This document shows, in pieces, positions 16,498-49,892 of a stretch of DNA of 64,000 nt. The translations under genes and the position numbers were made by a program. Under the pieces are notes generated by a model. It searched no databases. It was not told the origin of the DNA and was given only the letters and a program-made list of their open reading frames with translations. The stretch comes from Botryllus schlosseri (lineage: Eukaryota): contig CM119371.1 in NCBI GenBank assembly GCA_051294905.1, positions 13,952,001 through 14,016,000 of the forward strand, in the 5' to 3' direction. The stretch's first letter is position 1, and every line of letters begins with the position of its first letter.

Positions 16498-19377
16498 TCA
16501 AGGCGGTCGTTGACGGACGAAGGCGTTGAATCGAGCGGAGGTCGTTTGAATGCTGCGGAGCATTGCGGTGCTGTCGATACAGAAGCGAGCGGAGTCGATA
16601 TCGTAGTCGAAATCTTTTACGTCTGTAGCAAGTTTGTTGCCGGATACGGCTGGGGCAAGTTGCAGTTTGCGTCTGCTTGGCATCTTTCGTTGTTGGGTAT
16701 GGAAATGGATAGGTTCTAAAGTTCGTTCCGACGAAGGCAGCAAGTCCGGCGGAACGGCTTGAGTGTACCCTCGAGACAGACCCTCGTAGATCTTTTCTTT
16801 ATACTTTCGAAAGAACTCGGGTTCTTCCGCGACTTTTGAAGGTCGGTTGTCGCGCGATTTCACGGCAGCTCCATTGTTGTAGGGCGGTTTGACAGTCTGC
16901 GTTTTCTTGAGCGGAAACACTTCGTGACGTATGTTTGTTGTGTGCGGAGGCGCAGCGTCTTCTACGTTGGACAGAGGTTGCGTGTCGGCATCAGAGTTTC
17001 CAGAAATGTCGAGTTTGCCATAACCAGGGGCACAGGAAGTCGGACTGTCACTTACAGTAACAGGTATCAGGTCTTTTTGTCCCTGCAGAGGGACTTCGTC
17101 GTTTGCAGATATGATAGGCCCAGTAGAGACATTGGTACTACTTGGAATGACTGTTCGGAATTGGGCTCTGGGAACAGCCCCGAAGAGTTTCATGGTTACA
17201 TCTCCGAAGAGTTTGATAGTTACAGCAGTATCATGATTAGGAGAGTCGCATGGACTAGGTTTAGGGTTTGGATAATTTGTCGGTGCGGGCGCCGGCCCAT
17301 TAACGGGCCTCTGACCGACACCACTGTGTGTTGTGTCAGACGCAGGTGGGAGGCTTTTGAAAAGTTTGCGGGGATAAGATGTGGTTTCGGTTCGAGCGGA
17401 GTACTTATCGTTAGGATTTATGTTTACGGGCTCAAGGACGCAATCGGATTCATAGATAAAACTAAAGGCAGGAGCGACTCTATCGCGAGCATGAGAACTG
17501 TATTTGTTGTGCGCTAAGGGCACTAGATCGGCATTGAAATCGTCTGTACGACGATGAGTTGCGAGTTTATCGCGAGAGCGAGAAGCGAGATCGTTGTGCC
17601 CGGTTGGCACATTACGAATATCGGCGGATTGACCGCGAGAACAAAGAATGAGATCGTTGTGCCCGGTTGGCACATTACGAATATCGGCGGATTGACCGCG
17701 AGAACAAAGAATGAGATCGTTGTGCCCGGTTGGCACATTACGAATATCGGCGGATTGACCGCGAGAACAAGGAATGAGATCGTTGTGCCCGGTTGGCACA
17801 TTACGAATATCGGCGGATTGACCGCGAGAACAAGGAATGAGATCGTTGTGCCCGGTTGGCACATTACGAATATCGGCGGATTGACCGCGAGAACAAGGAA
17901 TGAGATCGTTGTGCCCGGTTGGCACATTACGAATATCGGCGGATTGACCGCAAGAACAAGGAATGAGATCGTTGTGCCCGGTTGGCACATTACGAATATC
18001 GGCGGATTGACCGCAAGAACAAGGAATGAGATCGTTGTGCCCGGTTGGCACATTACGAATATCGGCGGATTGACCGCGAGAACAAGGAATGAGATCGTTG
18101 TGCCCGGTTGGCACATTACGAATATCGGCGGATTGACCGCGAGAACAAGGAATGAGATCGTTGTGCCCGGTTGGCACATTACGAATATCGGCGGATTGAC
18201 CGCAAGAACAAGGAATGAGATCGTTGTGCCCGGTTGGCACATTACGAATATCGGCGGATTGACCGCGAGAACAAGGAATGAGATCGTTGTGCCCGGTTGG
18301 CACATTACGAATATCGGCGGATTGGTGTCGAGAACGAGGAATAAGATCATTGTGCGCATTAGGCACGTAACGGATATCGGCGGGTTGACCGCGAAAATGA
18401 GAAGTTATATCATTGCGCGCATTTGGCACGAAACGGATCTCGGCGGGTTGACCGCGAGAACGAGAAGTTATATCGTTAGATCTAAGGTCACTCTGGCACT
18501 GCGGAGTGTTTCGAGAATACGAGGGAATGACCGGCCTCGAACCGGCAGTGAAACTATGCGAATGGATGGACTGGGAATGACATGGGATTGCTGATGCGAT
18601 TAACTGACGAGTGGTCGGTAACGGTTGGGTTATCGCCGGCTCCGGAACGAGCCTCTGCCCAGTACTGCTGACTGGTATAGATGCAGGCGTGCCCAAGGTA
18701 TTTAAAGTCATTGCTTGAGTAGTGGGCGAAGGTAAGGGTTCAGTACTCACAGCGTTTTCGGTGACGGTAATGTTGGACTCTTGTGATTTGAATGAACCAT
18801 CAGCAGATCTTTGTTCTTCCTCGGCAGCTGCCAATTCTGCGGTAGCTATGAGGATCTGACTTTCGGCGTCGATTCGTTTCTCGAGAATCTGCCTTCGTTT
18901 CATTTCCAGTTTGGCTTTATCGAGTTGCAGCTTAGCGTCCCGGACTTTGGCTGAGCCTCTTGAGGACGTGGCGGAATGAATACTCTGTGATTTATTGGAA
19001 GTTCGAGGTTTAATGCAGTCAAGGGTGACATTTGAAGACGAGTTCATGTTTTCTTCTCGGTAGGCTTGGTAAGCGCAATGTGCATAACGCTGACCAAGCG
19101 CGACAGTTAACAACAGTAAATGTATTTGTTGGACGCTCTCAAGGTAGAGGTCTTTTTCAGCTTCTTGGTACAATCGTTCCAACTCGTCGATGAGTTGAAT
19201 GCAAACTTTGTTGAATTCGTCTTTACATTTGGTGACGTGTGGTAGCGATGCATATTGTATGGCGTATGAGAAAGCGCGCTCGGCTTTCTGGTAAGCGGCA
19301 CTAGAATTTCGAAGGACTTCGTCGATATACTGCTTGCACAAAACCTGTCGACCGGCGGCTTGCAGTGTTCGATACAT
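16498..19377 (-). CDS. Element A single ORF: gag-like N-terminus and coiled coil, 21-aa repeats, fused BEL pol remnants
   Basis: 959 aa open. PPYNNGAA...PEFFRKYKEKIYEGLSRGY resembles the BEL pre-RT region and IDSTAMLRSIQTTSARFNAFVRQR the BEL RNase H region; no RT core or integrase. Confidence 0.75.
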   Translation of the reverse strand: MYRTLQAAGRQVLCKQYIDEVLRNSSAAYQKAERAFSYAIQYASLPHVTKCKDEFNKVCIQLIDELERLYQEAEKDLYLESVQQIHLLLLTVALGQRYAHCAYQAYREENMNSSSNVTLDCIKPRTSNKSQSIHSATSSRGSAKVRDAKLQLDKAKLEMKRRQILEKRIDAESQILIATAELAAAEEEQRSADGSFKSQESNITVTENAVSTEPLPSPTTQAMTLNTLGTPASIPVSSTGQRLVPEPAITQPLPTTRQLIASAIPCHSQSIHSHSFTAGSRPVIPSYSRNTPQCQSDLRSNDITSRSRGQPAEIRFVPNARNDITSHFRGQPADIRYVPNAHNDLIPRSRHQSADIRNVPTGHNDLIPCSRGQSADIRNVPTGHNDLIPCSCGQSADIRNVPTGHNDLIPCSRGQSADIRNVPTGHNDLIPCSRGQSADIRNVPTGHNDLIPCSCGQSADIRNVPTGHNDLIPCSCGQSADIRNVPTGHNDLIPCSRGQSADIRNVPTGHNDLIPCSRGQSADIRNVPTGHNDLIPCSRGQSADIRNVPTGHNDLILCSRGQSADIRNVPTGHNDLILCSRGQSADIRNVPTGHNDLASRSRDKLATHRRTDDFNADLVPLAHNKYSSHARDRVAPAFSFIYESDCVLEPVNINPNDKYSARTETTSYPRKLFKSLPPASDTTHSGVGQRPVNGPAPAPTNYPNPKPSPCDSPNHDTAVTIKLFGDVTMKLFGAVPRAQFRTVIPSSTNVSTGPIISANDEVPLQGQKDLIPVTVSDSPTSCAPGYGKLDISGNSDADTQPLSNVEDAAPPHTTNIRHEVFPLKKTQTVKPPYNNGAAVKSRDNRPSKVAEEPEFFRKYKEKIYEGLSRGYTQAVPPDLLPSSERTLEPIHFHTQQRKMPSRRKLQLAPAVSGNKLATDVKDFDYDIDSARFCIDSTAMLRSIQTTSARFNAFVRQRPP
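17587..18480. repeat. 63-bp in-frame tandem repeat (12 near-identical plus 2-3 diverged units)
   Basis: Unit GAGATCGTTGTGCCCGGTTGGCACATTACGAATATCGGCGGATTGACCGCGAGAACAAGGAAT, encoding SADIRNVPTGHNDLIPCSRGQ on the minus strand. Confidence 0.97.
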
Positions 19378-20244
19378 ATCGATGTCAGTCAGCTCTCGTA
19401 TTTTTTAACTTATGTCCTTGTTATTGACACATTCAGTCCTTCACAGAACTGTTACAACTCGACGGCGAGTTGGACTGGAGCAATCGTTGCGAGTAATGAC
19501 TGACTGAGTATAATTAACTGGCTAATAAGTCCGGACACAGTAAGTTTCCCCTTGTGTGTATTGTAGAATGTCGATCAAACAACCCAGACTATATCATATC
19601 GTTAAAAAATACGCTGGCAAATACTCTAAATGAGAAATTACATTAATTAGAGTCAGATTCAGAGCAGCGTGGAAGCCCTGTTTACGGCATGACCGCTTTC
19701 GGAGAGAATGATTTGTGATCCAGTTTCTTCTCGCGTGCGGCGAGGTGACTCGAGCGTAACCAACCATTGATACGGACAAAAATCCACCGTGACAATGCTC
19801 AACAAGTCGGAATGATGTTGCAAATGGGGATTTGATTCAATGTCGAGGGTTGCAAAACCATTTCTGTACCTCCATTTACAAATCCAGGTTCAAGAACAAA
19901 ATGACATACTAGTTTTCTGTTTTTTTATGCATTTTGGTGCAGCAATTGCTCATGTCTACTGTAAAATGTAGCCGAATGCATTTTTATAGGAGAGATGTCG
20001 GCCTTACTCTGCTGCCAGAGTTAGAAACCACACAAGCACAACATACAACAGGCAAAGCATCAATTAGAAAGAGGCTAACACTACATCTTGACAAGAACAT
20101 GGCACCACTTAGGTGATGCACCAGCCACTAATAACAGAACAACGACAAAATTCCCGCTGAAGAGTATGGGCTGGCCGCTTTCCAATGAACAATGTTAGTG
20201 GCTATCGGTTAACTTGAAGACGACACTACTTGAACAGCATAAAC

Positions 20245-25794: not shown

Positions 25795-28700
25795 TGTGGA
25801 ACGCCCTGCGCCCTCTCACGGTTCATACACTTTGTAAGATACAACATCATTATGGTACATCGCCTATATCTGTATATCACGTGACTTATATCTTTCTTCT
25901 CGCAACCACGTGACTTACCATTTATCAGCTCGTGCATTTCAATTACAAACTAGACTCATACGCGATATCCTACTGTATATTCCATACGTATTCGACCAAT
26001 ATATCTATCCGAGGCAATACTGTCGTTGCATTTACGTTGGAGTTGTCAGATCAAGGACTAACACAGGGACGTGCGTCTACTACGAAAAGAGCTAAGTATA
26101 TCTACCCAGCCACACATTACGTGGGACTCAGGTTGCAACTCTAGCAGGTTATCAGACGCCATATCTGGTCTGCATGGTGCCAACTCGTGAGATGATTTCA
26201 GCTTCAACGAAGGACGAATCGCCTCCTACACAATTGGACTTACAACTGCTATGGAGCCATCCAGGACTTTTTCAGACTTACACGGTAAATCCGTTTATTT
26301 GACTTCGAATTTCGGGAATGCATTCGGCAGTGAGAATGATTTATCTCACTTGGCTTTATCGGCTAGCAGCAAATTTCTTCGTTATTGCTCGATTCGTGCT
26401 TTCTACATAATTATATTAGTTGTTTGTGTTTCTGTATTCAATGCCATGACATTCAGAGAACCAGATTTGAGTGATACTCTGACACTGCCAAGACGTTGTT
26501 CATTGGTTTCGTTTTTACATTACGGCCTTAAAGTCTGTTATTTTATTCTTAACGTTTTCCTTTCTAACGACATTATCACATCCATTCGGCGTCGGGAATT
26601 ACACTGTCGGCCGCCTGATAAAATCGCTTCTCTACCCCGTGAAATCGAATATTAACCACCGATCCACTATTCAATATTTTCATAAATAACTTCACTTTCG
26701 CACGATTAGCCTACCTGACTCGTTTACCAAACCATTTGCTTACAATTGTTTAATTGTTCAACAACTCCATTTCGATTTTATTATAAATTTTGCGGTTTTC
26801 CTACCCTCGTATTACCTCGTAACTCACTACCAATCACCATGGTTATTTACCAATCTATTTTTTGTTCGTTTTGTTATATTCACGTCATTTCCGTGGAACA
26901 TAACTACTAATCCCATTATTTTAATTTCGGAATATTTCTTTAAACCTAATTCATACATTACTTTTTGTGATTTCATCTGTCATTCATGCGACATTGACTT
27001 CCGCGCGTATTTAAGCGCTACCCTTTTTTTAACTACCGTAACTACATACCGTCAATGTGAATTCCATAACAATAGTGACGCGTCTTTTCGGCCGACTATA
27101 ACATAACATCCCACCGTATTTAATATGATAATTCTGCGGCAACATCAGCTCTTTTTAACCGGCAATTTAGATCTCGGCTATGAACTATTAAGATATACCA
27201 GTAGCACTGGGAATTGGGATTTTATAATTAACTTTATTTTTCTAACTTCAATTCATCTTATCTAATTACGCGTATTCGCATAGCCTCGCTTTGCTACAAT
27301 TTCTCATAATGGTTATTTGATTTTAATCACATATTTGCATTACTTAAAACTCAGCCTTATGCTGGAATTTGTGGATACGGAATTAATTTCCCATTTTTTT
27401 TAAAAAACATTGACTTATTTACTTTCTTTATACTAGGTCTTTTACATAATCGCTTACTTCTAATTACCCATACTTAAATAAGGCCTCTTTAACACGGTGA
27501 CAAATTGTCATTTTTCTTCGTAATTTACGTCTTTACATACTTACCCGCGATAATGTCATCTGAACATACTCAGATTTTACAACCTAGCTATATGCGATTA
27601 ACGATACATTTATTTTACCCGCAATGCCATTTGGACGCAATATTATCTAAATATCCCGTGATTTATTTTGGCCACGGACATTTCCCGTTTTATATATGCT
27701 ACTCCGACTAGGAAATCAAGAATTGTTTCGGCTTATGTGTTGTGATCTAAGGCACAAATTTCGACCCGGGTGTATCCGAGTCTTCTCAAAGCGTCGGCCA
27801 CGGGATTGCATATCTGGTCCCGCTTTACCGCCTTGATCAAGCGGTGGGGCGGAGTCAGTGTTGTAATTAGACTCGAGGTCTCCAGCGCTCAGACTCGCGA
27901 TATTACGAAATCTGATGCTGACGTTCGCACCGCAATCTGAGTCATTTCTTCGATCTACTAGGAAGTCCGTACTTACAAAAGCGTTACAGTCACTGTATAT
28001 TATATATATACTTTTAATGTGAAGCACGATTCTTACTTACGCAATTGTGCATTAACTGTCGCGACGTGTTTAACGGCACACGTCAATTTATTTCCGGAAA
28101 CCTTTTTATACCTGGAGAGCATATGGCGCGCAGATCCAGCGATATGTCTGGATTTGTGGTATGCCATGCGGTGTACATATCGCTAGGGACTTTTCTGGAC
28201 ATGACTGCGTGTTCGCAGCACTAAATTCGTACATGCCATTAGGCTACCTAACAATACAAACATTTGTCATTACTTCGGCTATTGTTATTACATTCTCTTT
28301 ATAATTTTTACACTATACTTTCACGACTTACTTTGTCATATAATTAAATGACGAATTCCCCGCGTTACGCTACGATTACATTCATCTTGACATGCTTTGA
28401 TGCGAATATTCCATTTCTAGATACTTTTGATCTGATTAATACACCCGGATAACCCGGCATAATTTCCATTCACTTCGAGATTACGTAAATTTTTATTTAT
28501 TTCTACTTGAAAGCTCAAATTACTCACAAGGCTTATATAACCGCCTTGCGTCCGTCACGCATGGAATAATCGATTCAATACTTAGTACTTACGCTTACAT
28601 TATAGCGTAGGCCTACTCGGCTCATTTCATTCCTATCGGTGCAGATTTTCACCACTTCATATCTGGTTCACTGACAATACAATGTGTTTATTTTATTTAC

Positions 28701-30638
28701 CTTCTTTTTCAATTTGTCATTAGGCTACTTTTATTGCTATTATTATTTTCCTACTTTGTGAAATAGCCTTTTTGCTGCCGATATTGCATTGCATTCTAGA
28801 ATTCGTTGTCGTCTGCCAACGGGTCTCGCGAACTGCCGCAATGCTCTCTACTACACAACAACCTCCGATCTCCGATTCCGCCGCCTATGTCAACATTTCG
28901 GGACATACCAGTTCAACATTACTTTGGTAACACCACGTATTTATACGCATTTTTAAGTCGACTTCGATAGTCGTGAAGAATATTCGCAGAACAGGCGATA
29001 CGCGTTTTAACCTTGGCGGAGTGAACTAATTGGATCTAAATACAATCATTATTGAGCAATGAGCATTGACTGTTAATTATTCCAGGCAGGTTCGCGACCC
29101 ACGGTGCACGGTTTAACTGTATATAAATAATTATTCGGTCTTCCTAAAGACTGATGGACATTTGACATTTCCATCGCGATGAATTTCCTAATCCTTGAAA
29201 TATTAGCATTCATGAACTTTTTCTATTATATTATATTAATTTTCGTCAATCGCACGTGGAAACCACGCTTCTCTTGCATGGCCGGTTATCGCGTGAACAA
29301 TCCCGTAACCCGGATACCCAAAGTGGATTTTGATTGACAGACATTTCCCGCAACCTCTTCCGAGATACTGATTTGTTTTGCCTACATTTTGAGAGATACT
29401 TGCTACTTGGTTTGTATAATTTTCCCCTATTGCGGCAGACTTAACGCCGCCGCCCGTACCGTCTAATGTGATAATCGGTCTTCCCCGCTGTCGTGGGATT
29501 TTCGGCGGCTAACAATAACACATATCTACCCCATTTCCCACACTAATGACCTATTCGTCATGCCGTATTCCGCGGCTCCTTTGTTTGTCATATATCGAAC
29601 CGATTGTCGGCCATTTTGTATTCAATTGTCGACCCTTTTTTCGTGTTATTTTTTTTTCCTTTTTCATTTTAATACAGATTTCATAAAATTGCCCTTTACA
29701 AGCCGTTCTGGTATCTTGAACCACGTGTTTCGATTAATTTGAAAAGTAGTTTTGACTTTAATATGCTCCCCAACCATACACTGGATTCCGCTTATAGGAT
29801 TTTGCCTTTACAAATAACATACACTCGTTTTAGAGCTACCACCAATTCGTTCTAGCGTATGACGCATTCGCCAGACCTAATGTCAATTACCTTGTGTACA
29901 TATTTTTTTTGCTTCTTTCGTACTTTTAATAAAACACAAAATTGCCTCAGATAACCAATTCGCCAATTTGACTATATTAAATCTTACCCTTAACGTGTTA
30001 TCGTCACGCTATCTCATACGGTTGCATTGCTATCATGTTGTATAAATATTCCAACATCAGGCTACAATATCGCATTTTCAATTGACGTTATTACCCTTCT
30101 ACCAATACTTTATTAACTACACACTTCGGCCTTACCTCGTTAATCAACATGCTATGTTTTATATGTTGAAATTATTACATTTCTTAATCGTACTACTATT
30201 CAATGCATGTAAATTTCATTTTCTATTGTCGCTAATCACGCCTTTTTAGCAGAGGCGATGTGGAACGCCCTGCGCCCTCTCACGGTTCATACACTTTGTA
30301 AGATACAACATCATTATGGTACATCGCCTATATCTGTATATCACGTGACTTATATCTTTCTTCTCGCAGCCACGTGACTTACCATTTATCAGCTCGTGCA
30401 TTTCAATTACAAACTAGACTCATACGCGATATCCTACTGTATATTCCATACATATTCGACCAATATATCTATCCGAGGCAATACTGTCGTTGCATTTACG
30501 TTGGAGTTGTCAGATCAAGGACTAACACAGGGACGTGCGTCTACTACAAAAAGAGCTAAGTATATCTACCCAGCCACACATTACGTGGGGCTCAGGTTGC
30601 AACTCTAGCAGGTTATCAGACGCCATATCTGGTCTGCA
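25795..30638 (+). mobile_element. Non-autonomous LTR retrotransposon, probably Gypsy-type (element C)
   Basis: 380-bp LTRs 25795..26174 and 30259..30638, TG...CA, about 4 mismatches; 4-bp TSD GTAT; PBS starting TGGTGCC at 26175; purine tract AGCAGAGGCGA before the 3' LTR; no long internal ORF. Confidence 0.92.
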
Positions 30639-37744: not shown

Positions 37745-40700
37745 TATATGCTACTGTAAAATCGCTATTTGTAGCGCTATTGTAGCGCTCTTCGCCCACT
37801 TAATTGGATTAAGCCACTGTTGCGTGACGCGAATCGAACAGCGCGAACGCATAAGTATCTCCATTCACTGACAAGCTAACATGGAAATTTGGGTCAACTC
37901 GGAATCATGACGAATAAGAATAGTTTCCCACTAATCAGAAAGTGTAACTCAATATCGATCAACGAGACGGCATCAATTCTGCAAGCCCCGAAGGGTAAAC
38001 AAATTAGTTTGATTCATACAAATATCAGAGGATTGCAATCTAATTCCCACCATGATGAGTTAAAAGACCTTATCGTTGACCTGAAGTCACCTACCTTCGT
38101 AGCAATTTCAGAAATAAACTTTTCAACCAAACCCACGCAAAACGTTGATATATCGGGCTACAACTTCGAGTATACTCAGGCACCGAAGTCAAAGAAATCT
38201 TACGGAGGTGTTGGTCTTTACATTGAAGAAAAAACTCCTTACGAAATTTGCAAGGACTACGATCTGAATGTCAAAGATTGCGAAGAGCTATGGCTGGAAG
38301 TTGATCACCCAATTGGAATTCACAAATCTTTTCTTGTGGCCGTATTATACCGTCATCCCACGAAAAACATGAACCAATTCGCAAAAGCGTTGGAGCGCTC
38401 ACTGGACAAAGTCAACAGCGACAAAAAGATGTGTTTCATTGCGGGAGATATTAACATAAACCTTCTAAAACACAAAGGCAACGAATACTCCAACGCCGTC
38501 AAATCCGCCGGTCTCTACCAAATGATCACCGAGCCTACACGCATAACCGAAAAGTCAAGGACTTTGATCGACCACATATATACCAACTCGCGCGACATGG
38601 AAATCATTCCATTTGTCATTTCGGCAAAAATCAGTGACCACAACCATATTGGTTTTCTATCACAAGAACAACAAAGGACACCCCCCGAAACATATCACCT
38701 CTGCAGACGACGAGAGTTAGTGGACGAAGAAGCGCTCGATGATGCCGCATTCAATCAATTTAAAACATCAGCCATCCCCCACATCTCGGTAAACAACTTT
38801 GACGAAAAATTTGTTGAGTTTATGTCTGCTATCAAATCACTGCTGGAACAATTTGCACCTCTACAGCGCCTTTCGAGAAGTCAAAGAAAATTGAAGCGAA
38901 ATCCGTGGATGACCACAAAGCTGATTCAACTTATCCGTAAACGTAACCGGTGGCATAACCGAATAGACACCAAGAACTGCCCAGAACATGAACGAGAAAG
39001 ATTTCGACGTTTCAGGAATCGCACCGTGCATCTTATTTCCAAGGCAAAAGCAAAGTACAATGAGAGATTCTTCAACAGACACATAAAGGACACTCGAAAA
39101 ACATGGTCAGGACTTAACTCTCTCCTACATCGAAAAAAAGGCCATAAGTCTGTTTCGGAAATTGTGAATTCGGATACCGGAAACAAACTTTCAGACCCGG
39201 CGGCCATCGCGAATCACTTCAATGAATATTTTTGTAACGTAGGCCCAAATATTGCTTCTTCTATTACAAAACCTGTGTCGGCCAGGTCAGAGGTGAGATC
39301 GATATCCCAGTCAATTGTGCTTGAACCTACGACCAAATACGAAGTAGAAGTAGCCATCCACAAACTGAAATCGCACAAGGCCGACGGCTATGACCAAATC
39401 CCATCATGGTTTTTAAAAATGATAAGCCTGCATATCGGTCAATATATGGCCCATTTTTTCAACTTCATGATAGAAAATGGAGTCTACCCAAGCTATCTAA
39501 AAAAAGCCAGAGTAGTCCATGTACACAAAGCTGGGGATAGAACTAATGTCACCAACTACCGTCCGATATCCGTTCTCCCATGCATCGGGATTGTATTCGA
39601 AAAGTTGCTCCTCTCCCGCCTGTCCTCATTCCTCGCCAAAATGTCTGTCATTTCCCTTCAACAATTTGGCTTCCGAAACAAACACCAAACCGCTCATGCC
39701 CTCCTAACAGTGGCCGAACAGTACTATGATATCTCAGAGAAGCGAAATGTGGGATGTAGCATTTTTCTCGACCTAAAAAAAGCGTTTGACTGCGTAGATC
39801 ATAAAATTCTCATCTCGAAATTGGCGCGTTACGGACTTCGGGGCCCACAACTTGAGCTCATGAAAAGTTACCTCACTGGTCGCCAACAAATGGTTGCGAT
39901 CTCAGACACCTTGTCCTCTCCTCACCCGGTGACCTGTGGTGTGCCCCAGGGCTCAGTACTTGGACCGGTCCTTTTCACCTTATATGTCAACGACATTTTT
40001 GAAACCTCCTCATTGAACACCACACTGTTCGCTGATGATACTCACCTCCTCTCTTCAGCATCTTCGACGGCCGAGCTAGATGCCCTGACTGGTGACCAAA
40101 TGCCCAAAGTCCATGAGTGGACGGCCCAGAACAACCTTTGCATAAACGCCTCGAAATCGCAATTGCTGACAGTAAATTCAAAAAATAACCTAACCGTTAA
40201 TATCGCTGGTCAGCCCGTTTCCAACACAGATAATGCCAAATATCTCGGAGTTTTACTGGACTCGAACATGTCCTGGAAGAGTCATATTCAGTCCCTAGAA
40301 ACTAAATTATCACCGAAGTGCGGCCTGTTCTACAGCCTTGGGCGCTTCATGCCAGCATGGGTTCTTCTGATACTCTTTAAATCCTTAATCCAATCGAAGT
40401 TACATTATGGCATCCTCTGTTGGGGGGCTGCCAGTAAAACTGCACTCAAGCCACTGCAGAAACTACAGCATAAAGTACTCCGAATCATAGCTAGGGCCCC
40501 AAAGGGGCCTGGCTGCCCATCGAATAAGTCGCTGCTGAAGAGATTCGGCGTCCTAAACATAGAAGATATGCGGAAACTAGAAATCGCCAAGTTTATGTAT
40601 CAGTTTCACTGCGGTCGTTGCCCCGAATATTTCAATGACTTCTTTACCTCTGAATCAAAAGCGCACAAGTACAACACACGCGCGTCCACGTCGTCCAAAT

Positions 40701-41119
40701 ATCATATGATCGACCGAAAAGATCATCGCTCCATCAAATATGCCGGACCTGATGTGTGGAACAGTATCCCGCCGGCCATCCGACAGTCGACGAGCATGTC
40801 CACATTCAAGTCGAAATACAAGCAATTACTACTAAATAAATACAGTCCATCCTCAAGATTACCGGACCACGACTGACCTATCGATCTCGCTTCCCATGAC
40901 ATGCCGCCCTATTTCTTGTCGCATTCTTTTTCTATACTATCTTCTTTACTTTCATTCAGTGTGCATGCCTCCTCTTTACATCGCCTAGGCCAAGGTGGGT
41001 GTCAGATTCCATAGACTACTCCTTGTCGCTTCGACATCTTCCTGTCTTTTCATTGTATCGCATTTTTGTGGTGTATTGAACTGATAAAATTGCTAATAAA
41101 CCAATGATGATGATGATGA
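37745..41119 (+). mobile_element. L2/CR1-group LINE with 3' UTR and (TGA)5 tail
   Basis: ORF2, 3' UTR with AATAAA, TGA microsatellite tail at 41105..41119; 5' boundary uncertain; no TSD found. Confidence 0.8.
37907..40876 (+). CDS. LINE ORF2 (APE endonuclease + reverse transcriptase), L2/CR1 group
   Basis: APE motifs HTNIRG, AISE, GDININ, IDHIY, SDH; RT motifs YRPISVL, FLDLKKAFD, GVPQGSVLGP, FADD; uninterrupted ORF. Confidence 0.95.
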   Translation: MTNKNSFPLIRKCNSISINETASILQAPKGKQISLIHTNIRGLQSNSHHDELKDLIVDLKSPTFVAISEINFSTKPTQNVDISGYNFEYTQAPKSKKSYGGVGLYIEEKTPYEICKDYDLNVKDCEELWLEVDHPIGIHKSFLVAVLYRHPTKNMNQFAKALERSLDKVNSDKKMCFIAGDININLLKHKGNEYSNAVKSAGLYQMITEPTRITEKSRTLIDHIYTNSRDMEIIPFVISAKISDHNHIGFLSQEQQRTPPETYHLCRRRELVDEEALDDAAFNQFKTSAIPHISVNNFDEKFVEFMSAIKSLLEQFAPLQRLSRSQRKLKRNPWMTTKLIQLIRKRNRWHNRIDTKNCPEHERERFRRFRNRTVHLISKAKAKYNERFFNRHIKDTRKTWSGLNSLLHRKKGHKSVSEIVNSDTGNKLSDPAAIANHFNEYFCNVGPNIASSITKPVSARSEVRSISQSIVLEPTTKYEVEVAIHKLKSHKADGYDQIPSWFLKMISLHIGQYMAHFFNFMIENGVYPSYLKKARVVHVHKAGDRTNVTNYRPISVLPCIGIVFEKLLLSRLSSFLAKMSVISLQQFGFRNKHQTAHALLTVAEQYYDISEKRNVGCSIFLDLKKAFDCVDHKILISKLARYGLRGPQLELMKSYLTGRQQMVAISDTLSSPHPVTCGVPQGSVLGPVLFTLYVNDIFETSSLNTTLFADDTHLLSSASSTAELDALTGDQMPKVHEWTAQNNLCINASKSQLLTVNSKNNLTVNIAGQPVSNTDNAKYLGVLLDSNMSWKSHIQSLETKLSPKCGLFYSLGRFMPAWVLLILFKSLIQSKLHYGILCWGAASKTALKPLQKLQHKVLRIIARAPKGPGCPSNKSLLKRFGVLNIEDMRKLEIAKFMYQFHCGRCPEYFNDFFTSESKAHKYNTRASTSSKYHMIDRKDHRSIKYAGPDVWNSIPPAIRQSTSMSTFKSKYKQLLLNKYSPSSRLPDHD

Positions 41120-41455
41120 CTACATCGCAGTTACACCATTGGAGAAATAATTGGGGCTGATAAAAAACATATTTTTCCAATTTTCCGGCTACTTCTTAGA
41201 ATTGTTAGATTGCCTGAAAAAACTTAAATTTGGCTCAATTCCGACCGGTAGAAAGCAATGCTCTGGGAGAAAATTTTGGATTAATTACGAATAGAGATTT
41301 TCGAATTTTACTGGCTACCTCATGACATTTTTAGATTGTGTAAAAATATGATTCATAGCAAATTTGGCTCAATTCCAACAAGAGGAAGCGAGGTTATCAG
41401 AATAGGATATTTTGGATATGAAAAAAATAGTCGGCTTACCACTAGTATGTAATTA

Positions 41456-42018
41456 TATTATATGAAAGAATTTCTCACTAAAAATACTCCATTAATTTTC
41501 AAATCCAAAATTTTCTCTTCTCATATCATTGATTCTAATTTTTAAAATCTAACCAGATTCAGTGAACGTCAAATGGACGGAGGGTATTGTGTGTTTTCAC
41601 AGACGGCAGATCAAATCAATGATGAGTTACACTTCAAAAATACCAAAGTAGAGAGGAGATCCTCAGATATATTAAAGCGGCGTGGCCTTAGAATAAATCC
41701 ACATTTACTGAATACACTTTCCACTGCATGGTGCACTAGATGCAGGAATTGACAAGCATTTTTGAACCTCACTGAAGAGCGTTGGATACTCGTTTTTTCT
41801 AGTCGACAAAAAATGCAACATATGCTAATCATCGCCTTCAAATCTACACATGAGCTTATCAGTCTCTTCCAAGTACTTGACGAACTGAGTCATTGCATTG
41901 GCTCTAATTGAACTTTGCTTGTATAATTGAAAAGTCTTGAGTATACGGTACTTTGATTGCGGAGGATTTATTACCTCTTCATCATTGGATGATTTTGTAC
42001 AATGCTACTATATGTACC
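41456..42018. repeat. 563-bp direct duplication, left copy
   Basis: Repeated at 47350..47912 with one substitution seen; abuts the LTR start at 42019. Confidence 0.95.
41611..41800 (-). pseudogene. hAT transposase C-terminal dimerization domain remnant (duplicated at 47505..47694)
   Basis: AVESVFSKCGFILRPRRFNISEDLLSTLVFLKCN matches the hAT/ZBED ER.FS..G.I....R..L.....L.FLK.N pattern. Confidence 0.75.
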
Positions 42019-42538
42019 TGTCGCGTAGGATCAGTTCTCGATAGAACTGGACTGGAATATTTGTTGCAAGTAACGACCGATATCTAACTGACCGTCAAAG
42101 TCCAGACACAGTGGGTTTCCGTAGCTTGTATTGCGAGTAGGATTAACTAACTGGTCTATAACGTATCGTTAAAATATACGCTGGCAATTACTCTAAATGG
42201 AAGATATTACGTTAATGCAATGCTACACGAAATGCGACACAAATTCCCTGTTTACTGTACGACGTCTGTCTCTAAAAAGGGCGAAAACGTGGTCGTCGCT
42301 TCTCTCGAGTTAAGAATTAAGTAGAGCATGACAGAGCCACTCATGCTGAGAGAATCCACCGTGACATAGCCGGCCCTGTGGCGAATGGTGAATGCCAAAT
42401 AAATGCAGTTATCCATGAGCCACGAATTGAAGGAATGGTGGTGATGAGCGTATGAAAGACTAATAATAGGCAAATTATGTTAGCACGAAAGGAAATAAAG
42501 AAAAACGTGTAATACGATTCGCGCGGTGCTAGCACAGA

Positions 42539-44422
42539 TTAAGGCGGACGTTCGATGCGGACATTGCGGAGTTGCAGATCGGACGAAGCGAATCGAGCGT
42601 ATTTCCGAAGCAGGTATTTCTTGATCTCGTCTCGGTGTCCACGGAATAGTTCAGGATCTTGCGAGGACTTCAAACGGTGAATATAGAGTGGCTTAGCGGC
42701 TGCCACTCTGTTGCGGGGCAGTTTCACGGTCTTCGTCTCCCAGGGCAGAAGCGGTTGGAAACGTCCAGACACGATATGCGGCGGTGCAGTGTCTAGTACA
42801 TTCGTGTGAGCTTGACTTTCGGCATCATAGTCTTCAAAATACCCCGGTCTGTCATAACCAGGGGTGCGGATAGTATGACTGTTGCTTGCAGTAGCATAAG
42901 AAAAGACTCTCTGTAGTTGCACAAGGACTTCAGTATTGCCAGGCATGGCCGGCCCAGTGGAGACATTCACACTGTGCGGAGTGGCCATTTGGTCGGTGCC
43001 ATTAGGATTAGCTTTCGTCGGGAAGTTGACGGTTATATCGTCGGTATGATTGGGGGAATGGACTGGACTAGGTTGGACATGGGCATTTCCAGGAATTGTC
43101 GGTATGGTCAAGTGGGAAGTAAGTAACGCAGTGACCGCCGGCCCATTAACGGGTCTCTGGCTAACAACCACAGATGTATCAGATGCATGCGTGCGAGTTG
43201 TGTCAGAGGTAGTAGGTAAAGGTGAATGTTCGGTACGCACGACAACGCTTTCTGGGACAGGTTTGTCTAGTTTTCGTGGGGATAAGTGGGACAATTTGAT
43301 ACTGGCGATTTTCAGCTTGGTGAGAGCGTCGACGAGTTCTTTCTTTGCTTTGATAAATTTCATCTTTGCTTCAAATTCGACTTCGAGTCCTTTCATCTCT
43401 ATTTCAAGTTCGGCCTTGATTTGTTCTCTTGCGGCTTCCTTGGAAATGGTGGCACTTATGCGAAATGGACGATTCGATTTAGTTCTTCTTCGTAGTTGAT
43501 TGGAATTATAGAAGGTACGCTGGTATGCTATGAATAAGGCGCTGTTGGCATTACTTCGACAGCGGGTGATATCTGCGTTCAGCTTGTAAATTCGTGGTAG
43601 GATGGAACCAGTGGACTCGTAGGCTTGTGTTATCTGTATCAGTTTGTGTAATGTATCCTTGAGCTTAAGGATTAGTTCGTCTAGTTCGCATTTACACTCG
43701 GCGACGTACGTGTGTGATGATGCGTTCTTGACGGTGTGGAAGAAAGCGCGCTTAGCTGTCTTGTAAGCGGCGGTGGATTCTTTTATAACTTTGTGAACGT
43801 GCTGCTGGCTGAGCACCTCCGCTTCGGCTGCTGGCAGTAGTGTATTGGAATGCTGCTGGCTGAGCACCGCCGCTTCGGCTGCTGGCAGTAATGTATTGGA
43901 ATGCTGCTGGCTGAGCACCTCTGCTTCGGCTGCTGGCAGTAATGTATTGGAATGCTGCTGGCTGAGCACCTCTGCTTTGGCTGCTGGCAGTGATGTATTG
44001 AAATGCTGCTGGCTGAGCACCTCTGCTTCGGCTGCTGGCAGTAATGTATTGGAATGCTGCTGGCTGAGCACCGCCGCTTCGGCTGCTGGCAGTAATGTAT
44101 TGGAATGCTGCTGGCTGAGCACCTCTGCTTCGGCTGCTGGCAGTAATGTATTGGAATGCTGCTGGCTGAGCACCTCTGCTTTGGCTGCTGGCAGTGATGT
44201 ATTGAAATGCTGCTGGCTGAGCACCTCTGCTTCGGCTGCTGGCATCGTCGGCTGCGTATCGACGGGCTGCTGGCTGAGCACCTCTGCTTCGGCTGCTGGC
44301 AGTGATGTATTGAAATGCTGCTGGCTGAGCACCTCTGCTCCGGCTGCTGGCAGTGTCGAATCCGTGTTGACTTGCTGCTGGCTGAGCACCTTTGCTTCGG
44401 CTGCTGGCAGTGATGTATCCAT
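42539..44422 (-). CDS. Element B single ORF, homologous to the element A ORF
   Basis: STAAYKTAKRAF vs SSAAYQKAERAF, QRPVNGPA in both, VKLPRN vs VKPPYN, DPELFR vs EPEFFR, both end in RPP; ATG at 44422 aligns with the element A ATG. Confidence 0.78.
   Translation of the reverse strand: MDTSLPAAEAKVLSQQQVNTDSTLPAAGAEVLSQQHFNTSLPAAEAEVLSQQPVDTQPTMPAAEAEVLSQQHFNTSLPAAKAEVLSQQHSNTLLPAAEAEVLSQQHSNTLLPAAEAAVLSQQHSNTLLPAAEAEVLSQQHFNTSLPAAKAEVLSQQHSNTLLPAAEAEVLSQQHSNTLLPAAEAAVLSQQHSNTLLPAAEAEVLSQQHVHKVIKESTAAYKTAKRAFFHTVKNASSHTYVAECKCELDELILKLKDTLHKLIQITQAYESTGSILPRIYKLNADITRCRSNANSALFIAYQRTFYNSNQLRRRTKSNRPFRISATISKEAAREQIKAELEIEMKGLEVEFEAKMKFIKAKKELVDALTKLKIASIKLSHLSPRKLDKPVPESVVVRTEHSPLPTTSDTTRTHASDTSVVVSQRPVNGPAVTALLTSHLTIPTIPGNAHVQPSPVHSPNHTDDITVNFPTKANPNGTDQMATPHSVNVSTGPAMPGNTEVLVQLQRVFSYATASNSHTIRTPGYDRPGYFEDYDAESQAHTNVLDTAPPHIVSGRFQPLLPWETKTVKLPRNRVAAAKPLYIHRLKSSQDPELFRGHRDEIKKYLLRKYARFASSDLQLRNVRIERPP
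43796..44418. repeat. Mostly 51-bp (17-aa) in-frame tandem repeat, 12 units with a 4-unit higher-order duplication
   Basis: PAAEAEVLSQQHSNTLL-type units; units 4-7 recur as units 8-11. Confidence 0.95.
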
Positions 44423-44767
44423 ATCGACGTCAGTCGGCACTCGTATATTTTAACTCTTATGTCGCGTAGGATCAGTTCTCGATAGAACTGGACTGGAATA
44501 TTTGTTGCAAGTAACGACCGATATCTAACTGACCGTTAAAGTCCAGACACAGTGGGTTTCCGTAGCTTGTATTGCGAGTAGGATTAACTAACTGGTCTAT
44601 AACGTATCGTTAAAATATACGCTGGCAATTACTCTAAATGGAAGATATTACGTTAATGCAATGCTACACGAAATGCGACACAAATTCCCTGTTTACTGTA
44701 CGACGTCTGTCTCTAAAAAGGGCGAAAACGTGGTCGTCGCTTCTCTCGAGTTAAGAATTAAGTAGAG

Positions 44768-47301
44768 CAGTGCTTTTCAACCTTTTTGAGCTTCGTTCGC
44801 ACTTTTTTTGTAAAATAAATTTCATTCGCACAAACTAACCGAATATTGATATGCAAAAAGAAGACGAAAATACAACATTTATTTGCTCAGATGTGCAACA
44901 AATTGGCTACTATGTATCTTAAGCTACCAAGTGTCTCATGAAAAATGCTACTATTTTCGCTCGTTTTGATTTCAGCTATTTCACTAAAACCCTTCTCCAA
45001 GTTAACTAGTGCTTGGATGGTCTGGTCTTAAAGCAGGGGTCACCAACACGCGGCCCGCGGGTCGCATGAGGCCCGCGATGTCATATTTTGCGGCCCGGGA
45101 TCTGTTTTCAGAAGAACGCCCAGTACTTAAATTTATTTCTGTTTAAAAATATTGTCGACGTTGTTCAAAATATGCTATTCTCCCTTTAGAAACGCGAAAC
45201 GCCCTCCTAAAACGTGAAACCCCATCCTTTTGAAATGGCCCTTCAGACCCTAATACTCGGTTGCAATTCAATAAGTCGTATTATCAGTGTTGCGCACGGC
45301 CAAATAACGAAAGGCGTGATACCAATTAGCGAGATTCGTCATTGCGCATTGCACTGCAAATGTAACGTGACACGAGCGACACGGTCTCCCGCTGAGATAA
45401 TTGCGAAATCACGTCATTTATTGCCGCGCGCTCGGCAAGCGTTGCTAGCCTGATCTATCGCGTCTCCAACAGGGCTAGTTCCGCTGGCTTGAATAATCAC
45501 ATCTGCAATTGGCGGTATGTGCACGATATCATCGCTTGTCTACACAATCGCATCTGCATTGACTTGGTGCGCACGATATCATCGCTGGCCTGCACAATCG
45601 CATCTGCAATAGGCCTAGTATACGAAAGATATCGCTAGCCTAACTACCAAGTCTTGGGCCTACCATACTTTGGCCGGGGCTACGTAAGACGCATTGGTCA
45701 GCGCGCGTATTTTATTGTTTGATGCCGTGATAAGCGCGGGTATTCAATTGTTCACAACAGATCAGGCAGTCGCTAATTAACATCTCTTTCGGACTCGTCG
45801 ACAAGCTTATCATACACGTATAATCGTCAACACGATGATGTTGTATAATCGTTATTTATGCATGTTCTTAACCCTAATGAATTGATGCTATATACCAGGG
45901 CCATAACTGCCGCACCCCAAACCCAATTTATGCAATATTTTCAAAAATATTTCGCGCTAGGCGCAATTTCAAGTCGCCAAATATCTTGATTATTGGGTGC
46001 TCTTCCCCCAAGAGAAAATACGCAAGATTTATAGAAATGGACATATTGGCGTAGGCCATTACCGCGGCACGAAGCACAAAGACATATAACGTTTTAGGCC
46101 ATGAAACATGCGACTCCAAGAAGTGTGCCAGAACGATCGCAGCGAGACAAACACACAAGACAAATACCATCCTTCAGGAAAAAATTAAATGCCATTGAAG
46201 AAATACCAATCCGAAACCGTGTGATCTTTCAGTCTAGTACGTTTGAGCGATTCTATATTTTTGATATAGCAGACAGGAGGTCACGAAATAACATCATGTA
46301 ACAAAGTCATACCAACGGGTCCGTCCGCCCGAAGATGTTCGATCATTATTTACGGACTGTACAGTTTCAAAGACACCTCACTCAGCTCTACCGGTAAAAC
46401 TCATTACGTGAGCAGAGAGGACAAGAAATTGATAGCAATATATATGCAATTCCCGATCTTATTGACCGATTTTATCATGAATCATCGAAAATTTTCGCGC
46501 TTAGCGCTAGCTCACTGAAGTTCAGTTTATCGCCATATGGGGGCCCAGGAACAACGTTTGGGGGGACTGACGAAGTGCTGTTACGGCCCTGTATATTACT
46601 AAATTCGGTAAAAATCACACCCGCCCCTTTATTTCAACCACCCTCCCCCTTTTTTCGGCTGGCTTCGCCGAACAGACAGATAGTCCTGGCAGTGTGAACC
46701 CAAATTATACCCTTTGCAGTATATACTTTAATAACCCCTGAAAGGGTAAAATTTGCGTTACTGTAACTTGCAAATGGCAGTCTGTAATGATAGTATTTAC
46801 TACTGTCCTCGTGCCTAGCACTAATCGAACAGGTATTACGCAAGTATTGATGATTGTTTAGCGAAAGTAAGCAGAAAGTGAATTTAACGTCATTTTCCCA
46901 GCCTCCGACGGGCTGCTATATGTCTGGTCTGTCACTACACCAGCTTCCAAGCCAGGGTTTTGGTTACGTAATAATTATAGTGCGAAAATATCAATTCACT
47001 ACGGCTTGTGAGAGCTACGACTAGTGGTACGTCCCAAGTTAAACGAGTTTTTACAATTGCGTCGCAACAACTAAGGTTACACTGCGCTTGAATTTCGTAT
47101 TATGTTTATTTGAAAAGCAATTATTATTCACGATTTTCATTCGCACTCATCCGGGATTTTCATTCGCATCGTTCGCACCACCTTCGTCATTCGCACTCAT
47201 CCGGGATTTTCATTCGCACCGTTCGCACCATGTTCATCATTCGCACTGCAAATTTTTTCATTCGCACAAGTGCGAACCGTCACACAGGTTGAAAAGCACT
47301 G
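44768..47301. mobile_element. Non-autonomous hAT element inserted in the 5' LTR of element B
   Basis: TIRs CAGTGCTTTTCAACC/GGTTGAAAAGCACTG, 8-bp TSD AAGTAGAG; the other LTR shows the empty site. Confidence 0.93.
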
Positions 47302-47349
47302 AAGTAGAGCATGACAGAGCCACTCATGCTGAGAGAATCCACCGTGACA

Positions 47350-47912
47350 TATTATATGAAAGAATTTCTCACTAAAAATACTCCATTAATTTTCAAATCC
47401 AAAATTTTCTCTTCTCATATCATTGATTCTAATTTTTAAAATCTAACCAGATTCAGTGAACGTCAAATGGACGGAGGGTATTGTGTGTTTTCACAGACGG
47501 CAGATCAAATCAATGATGAGTTACACTTCAAAAATACCAAAGTAGAGAGGAGATCCTCAGATATATTAAAGCGGCGTGGCCTTAGAATAAATCCACATTT
47601 ACTGAATACACTTTCCACTGCATGGTGCACTAGATGCAGGAATTGACAAGCATTTTTGAACCTCACTGAAGAGCGTTGGATACTCGTTTTTTCTAGTCGA
47701 CAAAAAATGCAACATATGCTAATCATCGCCTTCAAATCTACACATGAGCTTATCAGTCTCTTCCAAGTACTTGACGAACTGAGTCATTGCATTGGCTCTA
47801 ATTGAACTTTGCTTGTATAATTGAAAAGTCTTGAGTATACGGTACTTTGATTGCGGAGGATTTATTACCTCTTCATCACTGGATGATTTTGTACAATGCT
47901 ACTATATGTACC
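47350..47912. repeat. 563-bp direct duplication, right copy
   Basis: Begins immediately after the LTR terminal CA at 47349; matches 41456..42018. Confidence 0.95.
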
Positions 47913-48019
47913 ATTGTCTGTTGTTTTTACGGCCACCTATCTGATATCAGACGAGTGCAACAAAAGCTGTGGTGACAAAAGCGATGTCGGCAGAATTCGT
48001 CAGATGCGTTGATCTAGCC

Positions 48020-49892
48020 CAGTGGTTCTTAACCTTGCCTCCAGCGCCCCCAGGGGGCGCTGGCGATTTTGAAAGGGGGCGGAAAAGCTCAGGGGACGAT
48101 ATGGGGGGCGCTGGGCTCAGGGGGGCGGTATGGGGGGCGCTGGAGAAAAATGGCTTCGCAGTAGATGATGTGGTGGTAGGACATATCCTTGATGAGTATT
48201 CAGAGAAAATGAACACCGAAAACTTCGTTATATATAGCCTACAAAAGACATATAGGTTTAATTGTCCATGGGCGCCTAAATGACTGGCACCGAATATTCC
48301 TGTGTTGGCAATCTGAACCCCAGAAGAGGAATTCCATCCGGCAGGGAAAAATTATATGCCAGTGAAGAAATACCAATTTGAAATCGTTTTCGTATTTTAG
48401 TTTAGTACGATTGGGCGACAGGGATATCTATAAAACTAGATATTCTTGTTGGGCGATATCCCTTTTGGGCGATTCTATATTTTTTGATATAGCAGACAGG
48501 AGGTCACGAAATAACATCATGCAACGAAGTCATACCAACGGGTTCGCCCGCCCGAATATGTTTAATTATTAGTTACGGGCCCTACAGTTTCCAAGACACC
48601 TCACATTGTTCGCTCCACGTTTTGATGAGTCTGCGCACACTCAATAAACTCACTGCGCAGACCCTTGGACAACAGTGCGTAACGACTAAAAAAGGGTCAA
48701 AACTTCGGATTAGTTGTGCGCAACGTAGATTTTCTGTGCACAGATACCGTGTCAGCACTGCGCACGTGAGCAGCTTAGACGGAACATTGCACCTCACTCA
48801 GCTCTACCGGTAAGTCTGGTAACGTGAGCAGAGAGGACAAGAAATTAATAGCAATATATATGTAATTCCCGATCTTACTGACCGATTTTATCATGAATTA
48901 TCGAAAGTTTTCGCACTGGCTCGCTAAACAGTACAGCTGATTTCGTGGCAAAATGAACAACGTGATGGGGGCGGTCGGATTATCACCCTATGGGAGCCCA
49001 AGACCCAAGTTTTATCGGGGGGCCTGGCGAAGTGCCATTTCGTTCCTGCCAACGGGTATACGCCCGAAGATGTATAAATATTATTGAGGGGTCCTACGGC
49101 CCTACCTTTTCAATCACACAACACTCAGCTCTACCGGTAAATTTGTTTACGTGAGTAGAGAGAGGATAAATTTGATATCAATATACATGCAATTCCGGAT
49201 CATATTTACCAATTCAATCATTAATTATTGAAATTTTTCGCGCTTCGCGCGTCTAGGCGGGAGTACCTGGCTCAGTAAATGGACACCCAATTGGCCGACT
49301 AGTATCAGCAAATAGTGGATAGCCGAAAGGGGGTCTGGGGGCGAAGCCCCCCGGAAGTTTGGTTTATCACCCGAGGGGGGGGGGGCTAAGACCAACGTTT
49401 TTGGGGGGCTGACGAAGTGCTGTTACGGCCCTGGTAACGAATTAATTGTACCTACGGGCACGCCCGAATATGTTTAATTATTAATTACGTGCCCTCTATC
49501 TTCCCATACAACAGCTCATTCAGCGCTACTGGTAAATCTGATTACGTGGGCTGAGAGGATAAAAAGTTTATAGCGACTTATATATGTAATTACCACCTAT
49601 TCATTCATGCATTATAGAAAATTTTGTTACCTAGGGCGACCATGCCACACGAACTTTGCTGACCATCGAAATCACGCTACGGGGTTCTTGGGGGCGAAGC
49701 CCTCGGAAGTTTGGTTTATCACGCTATGGGTGCGCAAGGCAATAATTTTTAGGGGGGATTGCGAAGTGCTGTTACGGCCCTCTCTCTTACTCATTGTCTT
49801 TATTACATTCCTTACAATATGCGGTTGGGGGGCGCTGGAGCACGATAAATTTTGAAAGGGGGCGCTGGAGGAAAAAAGGTTAAGAACCACTG
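48020..49892. mobile_element. hAT (Charlie-like) non-autonomous element
   Basis: TIRs CAGTGGTTCTTAACCTT/AAGGTTAAGAACCACTG; TSD ATCTAGCC. Confidence 0.92.

What the first reader, a model, noticed from the sequence alone, without database searches (positions are those of the whole stretch)
41456..47912. LTR element flanked by a 563-bp target duplication instead of a 5-bp TSD
Seen: 41456..42018 ends exactly at the first TG of element B and is repeated immediately after its last CA (47350..47912), with one mismatch; sister element A has an ordinary 5-bp TSD. Inference: non-concerted integration of the two cDNA ends 563 bp apart, or unequal recombination between two nearby insertion alleles. Either route lets an LTR element duplicate host DNA, which is relevant beside a tandem gene cluster.
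Basis: partly seen in the sequence, partly recalled or inferred. Interest (0 to 1): 0.7.

Follow-up and report, generated by a model that had tools for sequence, protein, structure and literature searches.

The report
BEL/Pao insertion with 563-bp target duplication
A small retrovirus-like jumping gene copied 563 bases of its landing site instead of the usual five, most likely through one botched insertion, an accident already known from human endogenous retroviruses and from HIV experiments.

Summary
D (41456-42018) and D' (47350-47912) differ at 1 of 563 bases and abut the intact outer TG/CA ends of element B, with no short TSD. B is a young non-autonomous BEL/Pao derivative on the minus strand; a hAT transposon later landed in its 5' LTR. 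D is not a gene: it is part of a high-copy interspersed repeat, 16.6 kb from the nearest Kelch ORF. Other copies of that repeat run through both borders of D, so the empty site held one D. D and D' share 11 of 11 listed letters at which most family copies differ, so one local copy was duplicated. Best reading (0.72): a single insertion whose two cDNA ends joined 563 bp apart. HERV-K has such long TSDs (13-450 bp, 8 of 451), and one-ended HIV integration gives the same product. I found no BEL/Pao case in print and no earlier long-TSD note in this scan. Not shown: a read spanning either new junction, the empty allele, or family-wide TSD lengths.

The parts
41456..42018 (.). Duplicated target segment D (left copy), an internal piece of a high-copy interspersed repeat
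   Evidence: X1 depth 55,000-89,000 over D against 42-1,225 over element B; depth is not a copy number
47350..47912 (.). Duplicated target segment D' (right copy), 562 of 563 bases identical to D
42019..42366 (-). 3' LTR of element B (348 bp); outer U5 end at 42019 joined to D with 0 nt microhomology
42367..42381 (-). PPT-position sequence before the 3' LTR (G-rich, not purine-pure); its last two bases give the TA that an unprocessed U3 end would carry
   Evidence: role inferred from position
42539..44449 (-). Single 636-codon frame with a 51-bp tandem array (43800-44418) and a C-terminal relic of BEL/Pao pol; no intact RT, RNase H or integrase
44442..44454 (-). PBS position: no TGG; 13 nt complementary to a stretch inside the LTR (self-priming-like signature)
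44460..47349 (-). 5' LTR of element B, split by the hAT; 347 of 348 bases identical to the 3' LTR outside the insertion; outer U3 end at 47349 joined to D' with 3 nt of possible microhomology (A|TA)
44768..47301 (.). hAT-type DNA transposon inserted later into the 5' LTR: 16-bp terminal inverted repeats, 8-bp TSD AAGTAGAG (44760-44767 and 47302-47309)
   Evidence: hAT label rests on the 8-bp TSD and CAG ends (recalled hallmark), no transposase tested
41174..41455 (.). Upstream part of the same host repeat (left border approximate), continuous with D in other copies
   Evidence: table 2 and table 8 records 4, 17, 18
47913..47921 (.). Natural continuation of the host repeat after D (only the first bases checked)
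   Evidence: table 7, loose ends at 42005 in X5 and X19

Best explanation
One copy of a non-autonomous BEL/Pao element, mobilised in trans, inserted into one copy of a host interspersed repeat in a single, non-concerted event. The U5 end was joined cleanly at 42018|42019, as integrase would do. The U3 end was joined to the opposite strand 563 bp away, at the start of D. Either a second, uncoupled integrase strand transfer did this, or host repair primed from the cDNA 3' end on a 3-nt match and copied D. Fill-in or replication then left D on both sides, as an oversized target-site duplication. A hAT transposon later inserted into the 5' LTR. Shown: the geometry, the single local origin of D and D', the one-D state of the host repeat family, similar young ages. 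Inferred: single event, which end used integrase, the repair route.
For: (1) Both borders of the duplication fall exactly on intact LTR termini. (2) The repeat family runs through both D borders: 3 of 24 listed pieces bridge the D start with at least 31 bases on each side, and loose ends in X5 (3 contigs) and X19 (6 contigs) continue from the D end into the ACCATTGTC motif that follows D', not into the LTR. (3) D and D' agree at 11 of 11 listed sites in D where family contigs carry another letter; in X5 and in X19, 9 of these 11 sites show the other letter in all laid depth. (4) Divergence matches: LTRs 1 of 348, D 1 of 563, Fisher p = 1.0. (5) A 10-nt exact-match check found no LTR end within 100 bp outside either outer edge of the duplication. 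(6) Precedent: HML-2 sites with 13-450 bp duplications, two with sequenced empty alleles (PMC5488345); one-ended HIV integration most commonly duplicates host DNA of hundreds to thousands of bp, usually with short homology at the aberrant end (PMC5041404).
Against: No read or contig shown spans either new junction: 0 of 15 listed joints (20 not shown) and 0 of 24 listed pieces (57,336 not shown); the only raw-read run laid 0 reads. The empty allele of this locus was not seen; continuity is at family level only. The 3-nt microhomology is not significant (52 of 858 positions, 6%, per end). Both ends keep a precise CA, whereas the aberrant HIV end is often, though not always, truncated. LTR identity does not separate one insertion from two, because a contig in X19 differs from this LTR region at only 1 of 461 bases. 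Local allelic divergence was not measured.
Confidence: 0.72

Rival explanations
1. Unequal crossover between two allelic insertions of the same young subfamily, one at each end of D on different homologues, gave a hybrid element flanked by D twice.
For: It gives exactly this geometry. Near-identical LTRs are allowed, because family contigs differ from B by as little as 1 of 461 bases.
Against: It needs two independent same-orientation insertions within 1 kb: 1e-5 to 5e-3 for assumed 10-1000 copies and 0.2-1 Gb, before the crossover itself, against 8 of 451 (1.8%) long TSDs in HML-2. D and D' would then be alleles: 1 difference in 563 has P = 0.024 at 1% allelic divergence but 0.23 at 0.5%; the true value was not measured. 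The 41460-to-42019 joint expected from one parental allele is not among the 15 listed joints (20 not shown).
Confidence: 0.09
2. Assembly artefact: two haplotypes or two loci were merged through the element.
For: No spanning read was seen; D and the element are both repeats.
Against: A merge of an empty and a normally inserted haplotype would need a join with 0 or 3 nt of overlap exactly at an LTR end (inference about assemblers). A merge of two different repeat copies is contradicted by the 11 of 11 shared rare letters. There is no gap in the window. A merge of two insertion alleles has the same low prior as the recombination model.
Confidence: 0.07
3. Pseudo-TSD (model of Kahyo et al.): a very recent segmental duplication existed first, elements inserted in both copies, and recombination between the elements deleted the interval, leaving one element between D and D'.
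For: Proposed in print for HML-2 long TSDs (PMC5488345); the window holds a tandem gene cluster.
Against: It needs a duplication, two insertions and a deletion within the time of about one substitution per 500 bp. The self-comparison shows no other near-identical segmental duplicate of the flanks in the window.
Confidence: 0.05
4. Ectopic recombination between B copies sitting in two unrelated copies of the host repeat (a chimeric rearrangement junction).
For: D is part of a high-copy repeat, so B can sit in several of its copies.
Against: Family contigs mostly differ from D at sites where D' agrees with it (11 of 11). A small young subfamily, or gene conversion over the whole 563 bp, would be needed.
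Confidence: 0.03

Closest known systems
HERV-K (HML-2) insertions with long target-site duplications (Kahyo et al. 2017, PMC5488345; parts 1-3 of 4 of the text read)
   Same: A near-identical direct duplication abuts the LTR ends in place of a 5-6 bp TSD; 8 of 451 putative TSDs exceed 10 bp (13-450 bp; 0-3 mismatches); empty alleles sequenced for the 111- and 250-bp cases.
   Different: Here a non-autonomous BEL/Pao retrotransposon in a non-human, probably marine invertebrate genome (inferred from GC, repeat content and marine holders); 563 bp is longer than their longest, but their search stopped at 500 bp; no empty allele seen here.
Aberrant one-ended retroviral integration (HIV-1 with suboptimal strand-transfer inhibitors or weak integrase; ASLV end mutants) (Varadarajan et al. 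2016, PMC5041404; background, results section 10, discussion and passages read)
   Same: One normal junction; the other end most commonly joined with a host duplication of hundreds to thousands of bp; short homology usual at the host-joined end.
   Different: Experimental and somatic, induced by drug or mutation (0 of 99 aberrant without drug); the aberrant end is often truncated, whereas both ends are intact here.
Integrase-independent insertion of the self-priming element Tf1 (Li et al. 2022, PMC11042837; passages read)
   Same: cDNA ends keep single-stranded PBS or PPT copies that anneal to the target; B carries a self-priming-like PBS, and its U3 junction matches the PPT-side dinucleotide.
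   Different: Tf1 events show longer PBS or PPT homology and are thought to truncate the far end; here 0 nt match on the PBS side, 2 nt on the PPT side, and both LTRs are complete.
LTR-LTR non-allelic recombination after new Ty insertions (GAP1 amplifications, PMC11790251; passages read)
   Same: An LTR element sits at the junction of a tandem duplication.
   Different: In cis this leaves LTRs at the outer edges too (inference); no exact LTR end was found there.
Dualen LINE insertions with very long TSDs in Chlamydomonas (PMC9977147; passages read)
   Same: Insertion flanked by duplications of median 900 bp, read as TSDs.
   Different: Non-LTR element using target-primed reverse transcription; there long TSDs occur at more than half of the insertions.

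Membership tests
BEL/Pao LTR retrotransposon (non-autonomous derivative) | Direct LTRs with TG...CA ends | tested here: met
   348-bp LTRs, 1 mismatch, TGTC...GACA
BEL/Pao LTR retrotransposon (non-autonomous derivative) | Pol homology to Pao-type polyproteins | tested here: met
   A's C-terminal 150 aa found 6 proteins at E<=0.001; 6 of 6 carry PF05380. B residues 560-618 align to one at 44% (pairwise E 3e-12) and residues 560-630 to another at 42% (7e-11); 2 of the 6 were tried. Direct Pfam scan of A and B gave 0 families.
BEL/Pao LTR retrotransposon (non-autonomous derivative) | Intact PR-RT-RNaseH-IN (autonomy) | tested here: not met
   Only a 60-70 aa relic is left; the element must move in trans
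BEL/Pao LTR retrotransposon (non-autonomous derivative) | Short TSD of 4-6 bp (general LTR value, PMC8220671 passage) | tested here: not met
   No 4-8 bp TSD at B; met by A (5 bp) and by the third element (4 bp)
BEL/Pao LTR retrotransposon (non-autonomous derivative) | tRNA primer-binding site after the 5' LTR | tested here: not met
   No TGG; a 13-nt stretch complementary to the LTR instead
LTR insertion with long TSD (HML-2 type) | Near-identical direct duplication abutting both LTR ends | tested here: met
LTR insertion with long TSD (HML-2 type) | Pre-integration allele with one copy of the segment | tested here: inconclusive
   Only family-level continuity of the host repeat across both borders; the locus allele was not seen
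One-ended, host-completed integration (HIV/ASLV type) | One normal integrase junction | tested here: met
   U5 end precise, 0 nt microhomology; being made by integrase is inferred
One-ended, host-completed integration (HIV/ASLV type) | Short homology at the other junction | tested here: inconclusive
   3 nt if the U3 end was unprocessed; 6% chance per end
Cis LTR-LTR recombination duplication | LTRs at the outer edges of the duplicated segment | tested here: not met
   10-nt exact-match check over 100 bp on each side; self-blastn shows no LTR match there
Real genomic structure (not an assembly artefact) | Single molecule spanning both copies | not testable with these tools
   No genome is held; none of the 24 listed runs holds more than 0.60 of the words; none of the 4 laid runs shows the junctions

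The most novel reading that the evidence does not exclude
In this apparently self-priming BEL/Pao clade the cDNA ends often keep PPT- or PBS-derived overhangs, so one-ended integration is common and B-family insertions routinely duplicate hundreds of bases of host DNA, possibly in nucleosome-sized steps (563 = 3 x 187.7 bp). That would make an LTR family a regular generator of small host duplications, as Dualen is among LINEs.
Probability: 0.07. Interest if true: 0.7.

Novelty: new member of a known kind. Interest (0 to 1): 0.3.

Why it matters
It extends the long-TSD accident, described for HML-2 and for impaired retroviral integration, to a BEL/Pao retrotransposon. It is a clean natural fossil of uncoupled end joining, with both LTR ends intact. 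Annotation pipelines that require a short TSD (as in PMC8220671) would drop such insertions, so their frequency is probably undercounted. The 563-bp direct repeats also allow exact loss of the element by recombination, a possibility Kahyo et al. raise for HML-2. As a single event that duplicated a piece of a repeat and no gene, it has little biological consequence. It would matter much more if long duplications proved to be a family trait.

Tried and rejected
Family-wide TSD table: not possible. No genome is held. An exact 22-nt LTR-end pattern found 0 matches in viral contigs and 0 in metagenome contigs. Spanning reads: 4 of 24 listed runs were laid on 40880-43790 only, a stretch in which both new junctions would show; X21 laid 0 reads, and X1, X5 and X19 are short contigs that show the element family and the host repeat but neither junction among the rows shown. 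This is no evidence against the structure. Rejected: tandem D-D first, then insertion at the joint with a short TSD (no 4-8 bp TSD). Rejected: hAT-driven rearrangement (breakpoints are at LTR ends, and the hAT has its own intact 8-bp TSD). Rejected: cis LTR recombination. Rejected: D as part of the element or of a Kelch gene. The ESM Atlas search of A's C-terminus gave only leads under 0.9 (Pao cluster at 0.79). Paper searches for a BEL/Pao or other retrotransposon long-TSD case gave HML-2, HIV and LINE cases only; most listed papers were seen as listings only, and subscription papers are largely outside the library. Scan look-ups for an earlier long-TSD note showed none among the rows displayed (8 of 74, 8 of 137).

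Full report
Observation. D (41456-42018) and D' (47350-47912) are ungapped 563-bp direct repeats with one mismatch (41985 T / 47879 C). One more A is shared on the left, which at 47349 is the LTR's terminal A. The window has no N. D ends at the TG that opens the LTR at 42019, and D' begins after the CA at 47349. No 4-8 bp TSD flanks the element. Element A (15605-19794) has TSD ATGCT and a third LTR element (25795-30638) has TSD GTAT.

Element B. It lies on the minus strand. The 3' LTR is 42019-42366. The 5' LTR is 44460-47349 and is split by a 2,534-bp insertion (44768-47301) with 16-bp inverted ends and an 8-bp TSD; I label it hAT-type from recalled hallmarks. Outside that insertion the LTRs differ at 1 of 348 bases. 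The insertion is in one LTR only, so it arrived after reverse transcription (inference). B has one 636-codon frame with a 51-bp tandem array and no Pfam hit. The C-terminal 150 aa of A's frame found 6 proteins, and 6 of 6 carry the Pao domain PF05380. B's residues from 560 align to the two of these that I tried, at 44% and 42% (pairwise E 3e-12 and 7e-11). B is therefore a non-autonomous BEL/Pao derivative. A and B are different families, with LTRs 67-68% alike. B has no TGG primer site; 13 nt at that place are complementary to its LTR, which agrees with an earlier scan note on this window.

What D is. No genome is held, so I laid 4 of 24 listed runs on 40880-43790. X21 laid 0 reads. In X1 the depth over D is 55,000-89,000, against 42-1,225 over B. 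Depth is not a copy number, but the contrast and the many variant letters show that D is part of a high-copy interspersed repeat starting near 41174. Three of 24 listed pieces bridge the start of D from the left flank. Loose ends near the end of D in X5 (3 contigs) and X19 (6 contigs) continue into ACCATTGTC, the sequence that follows D', not into the LTR. So left flank, one D, right flank is the natural order of this repeat, and both D-LTR junctions are new. Of 40 listed variant sites (202 not shown), 11 lie in D. D' carries D's letter at 11 of 11. In X5 and in X19, 9 of these 11 show the other letter in all laid depth; in X1 two of them are near 50%. D and D' thus come from one local copy, not from two family members. 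A small young subfamily is not strictly excluded. D has no frame over 92 codons and is 16,615 bp from the nearest BTB-Kelch ORF, so nothing ties it to the gene cluster.

What was not shown. Neither new junction appears among 15 listed joints (20 not shown) or 24 listed pieces (57,336 not shown). No run holds more than 0.60 of the words; the element makes up 61% of that stretch, so these are probably other individuals without this allele (inference). The structure is therefore untested by reads. Pattern scans for other family copies found nothing, so family-wide TSD lengths are unknown.

Mechanism. LTR and D divergence match (1 of 348 and 1 of 563; Fisher p = 1.0), as expected if insertion and duplication were one recent event. 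The U5 junction is precise, with no microhomology. At the U3 junction the LTR's last A and the next two PPT-side bases (TA) match the target, giving 3 nt if that end was unprocessed. This occurs at 52 of 858 positions by chance, so it is a hint only. Two routes fit: two uncoupled integrase half-reactions 563 bp apart, or integrase at U5 and host priming from the U3 end followed by recombination. I cannot separate them and give them 0.72 together. The second is the model of Varadarajan et al. (PMC5041404; background, section 10, discussion and passages read). There, aberrant proviruses most commonly carry host duplications of hundreds to thousands of bp; the aberrant end is often but not always truncated; 0 of 99 untreated proviruses were aberrant.

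Rivals. Unequal crossover between two insertion alleles (0.09) gives the same map. LTR identity cannot exclude it, since an X19 contig differs from this LTR region at 1 of 461 bases. It needs two same-orientation insertions within 1 kb, 1e-5 to 5e-3 under assumed copy numbers and genome sizes, and then a crossover. An artefact (0.07) would need a join without overlap exactly at an LTR end, or the same two alleles. The pseudo-TSD route of Kahyo et al. (0.05) needs more events in very little time. Ectopic recombination between two repeat copies (0.03) conflicts with the shared rare letters. Cis LTR recombination is rejected because no LTR end lies at the outer edges. A prior tandem duplication with a normal insertion at its joint is rejected because there is no short TSD.

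Comparison with what is known. Kahyo et al. (PMC5488345; parts 1-3 of 4 read) list 8 of 451 putative HML-2 TSDs above 10 bp, from 13 to 450 bp within a 4-500 bp search range, two with sequenced empty alleles. This finding works like those and meets their sequence definition; the empty-allele criterion is open. Tf1's integrase-independent path (PMC11042837; passages) offers a possible link to the self-priming signature, but the homology here is far shorter. Dualen LINEs make long TSDs routinely (PMC9977147; passages), by a different chemistry. New Ty insertions followed by LTR recombination also give duplications (PMC11790251; passages). PMC8220671 (passages) gives 4-6 bp as the general LTR TSD; PMC6298018 (passages) only cites Kahyo. 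Nine paper searches showed no BEL/Pao case; the library lacks most subscription papers. Scan look-ups showed no earlier long-TSD note among the rows displayed.

Verdict. A real-looking, young, one-off oversized target duplication at a non-autonomous BEL/Pao insertion: a new member of a known kind, interest 0.3. The boldest reading not excluded is that this self-priming clade makes long duplications as a habit, perhaps in nucleosome-sized steps (563 = 3 x 187.7; the nucleosome repeat length is recalled). I give it 0.07, since there is one case and the related element A has a normal TSD; it would deserve 0.7.

Noticed in passing
44442-44454 (B); 19397-19412 (A): No tRNA primer site; in B a 13-nt stretch 5 nt after the 5' LTR is complementary to the LTR. 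Self-priming-like signature, already noted by earlier scan findings; A was not re-tested for pairing.
   Followed up: partly
42019-43790: Run X19 holds contigs with only 1-3 other letters per record over most of this stretch, at depth about 190-590: a very close, probably young B-family copy. One record carries 186 unlaid letters left of the LTR, perhaps PBS-side sequence of a transcript or circle; the run type is not on record.
   Followed up: no
44768-47301: Gene-less hAT-type element in B's 5' LTR, with internal pieces 71-91% alike to repeats at 48.3-49.8 kb and 55.9-58.0 kb.
   Followed up: partly
48020-49892: Second hAT-type element with 15-bp inverted ends and 8-bp TSD ATCTAGCC, 107 bp right of D'.
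   Followed up: partly
37880-41120: LINE with a 998-codon endonuclease-RT frame, ending in a TGA-repeat tail just left of the host repeat; its 3' end is extremely abundant in the laid runs.
   Followed up: no
25795-30638: Third LTR element: 380-bp LTRs with 4 mismatches, 4-bp TSD GTAT, TGG after the left LTR, decayed coding region.
   Followed up: partly
1687-24841: Cluster of single-frame BTB-BACK-Kelch genes: 4 frames confirmed by Pfam plus a broken copy near 10.3-11.5 kb; 67-84% alike in DNA.
   Followed up: no
17587-18461 and 43800-44418: Elements A and B each carry a different in-frame tandem array (63 bp x 13.9; 51 bp x 11.9) inside a long open frame, although pol is deleted; the frames may be maintained for a gag-like role.
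   Followed up: no
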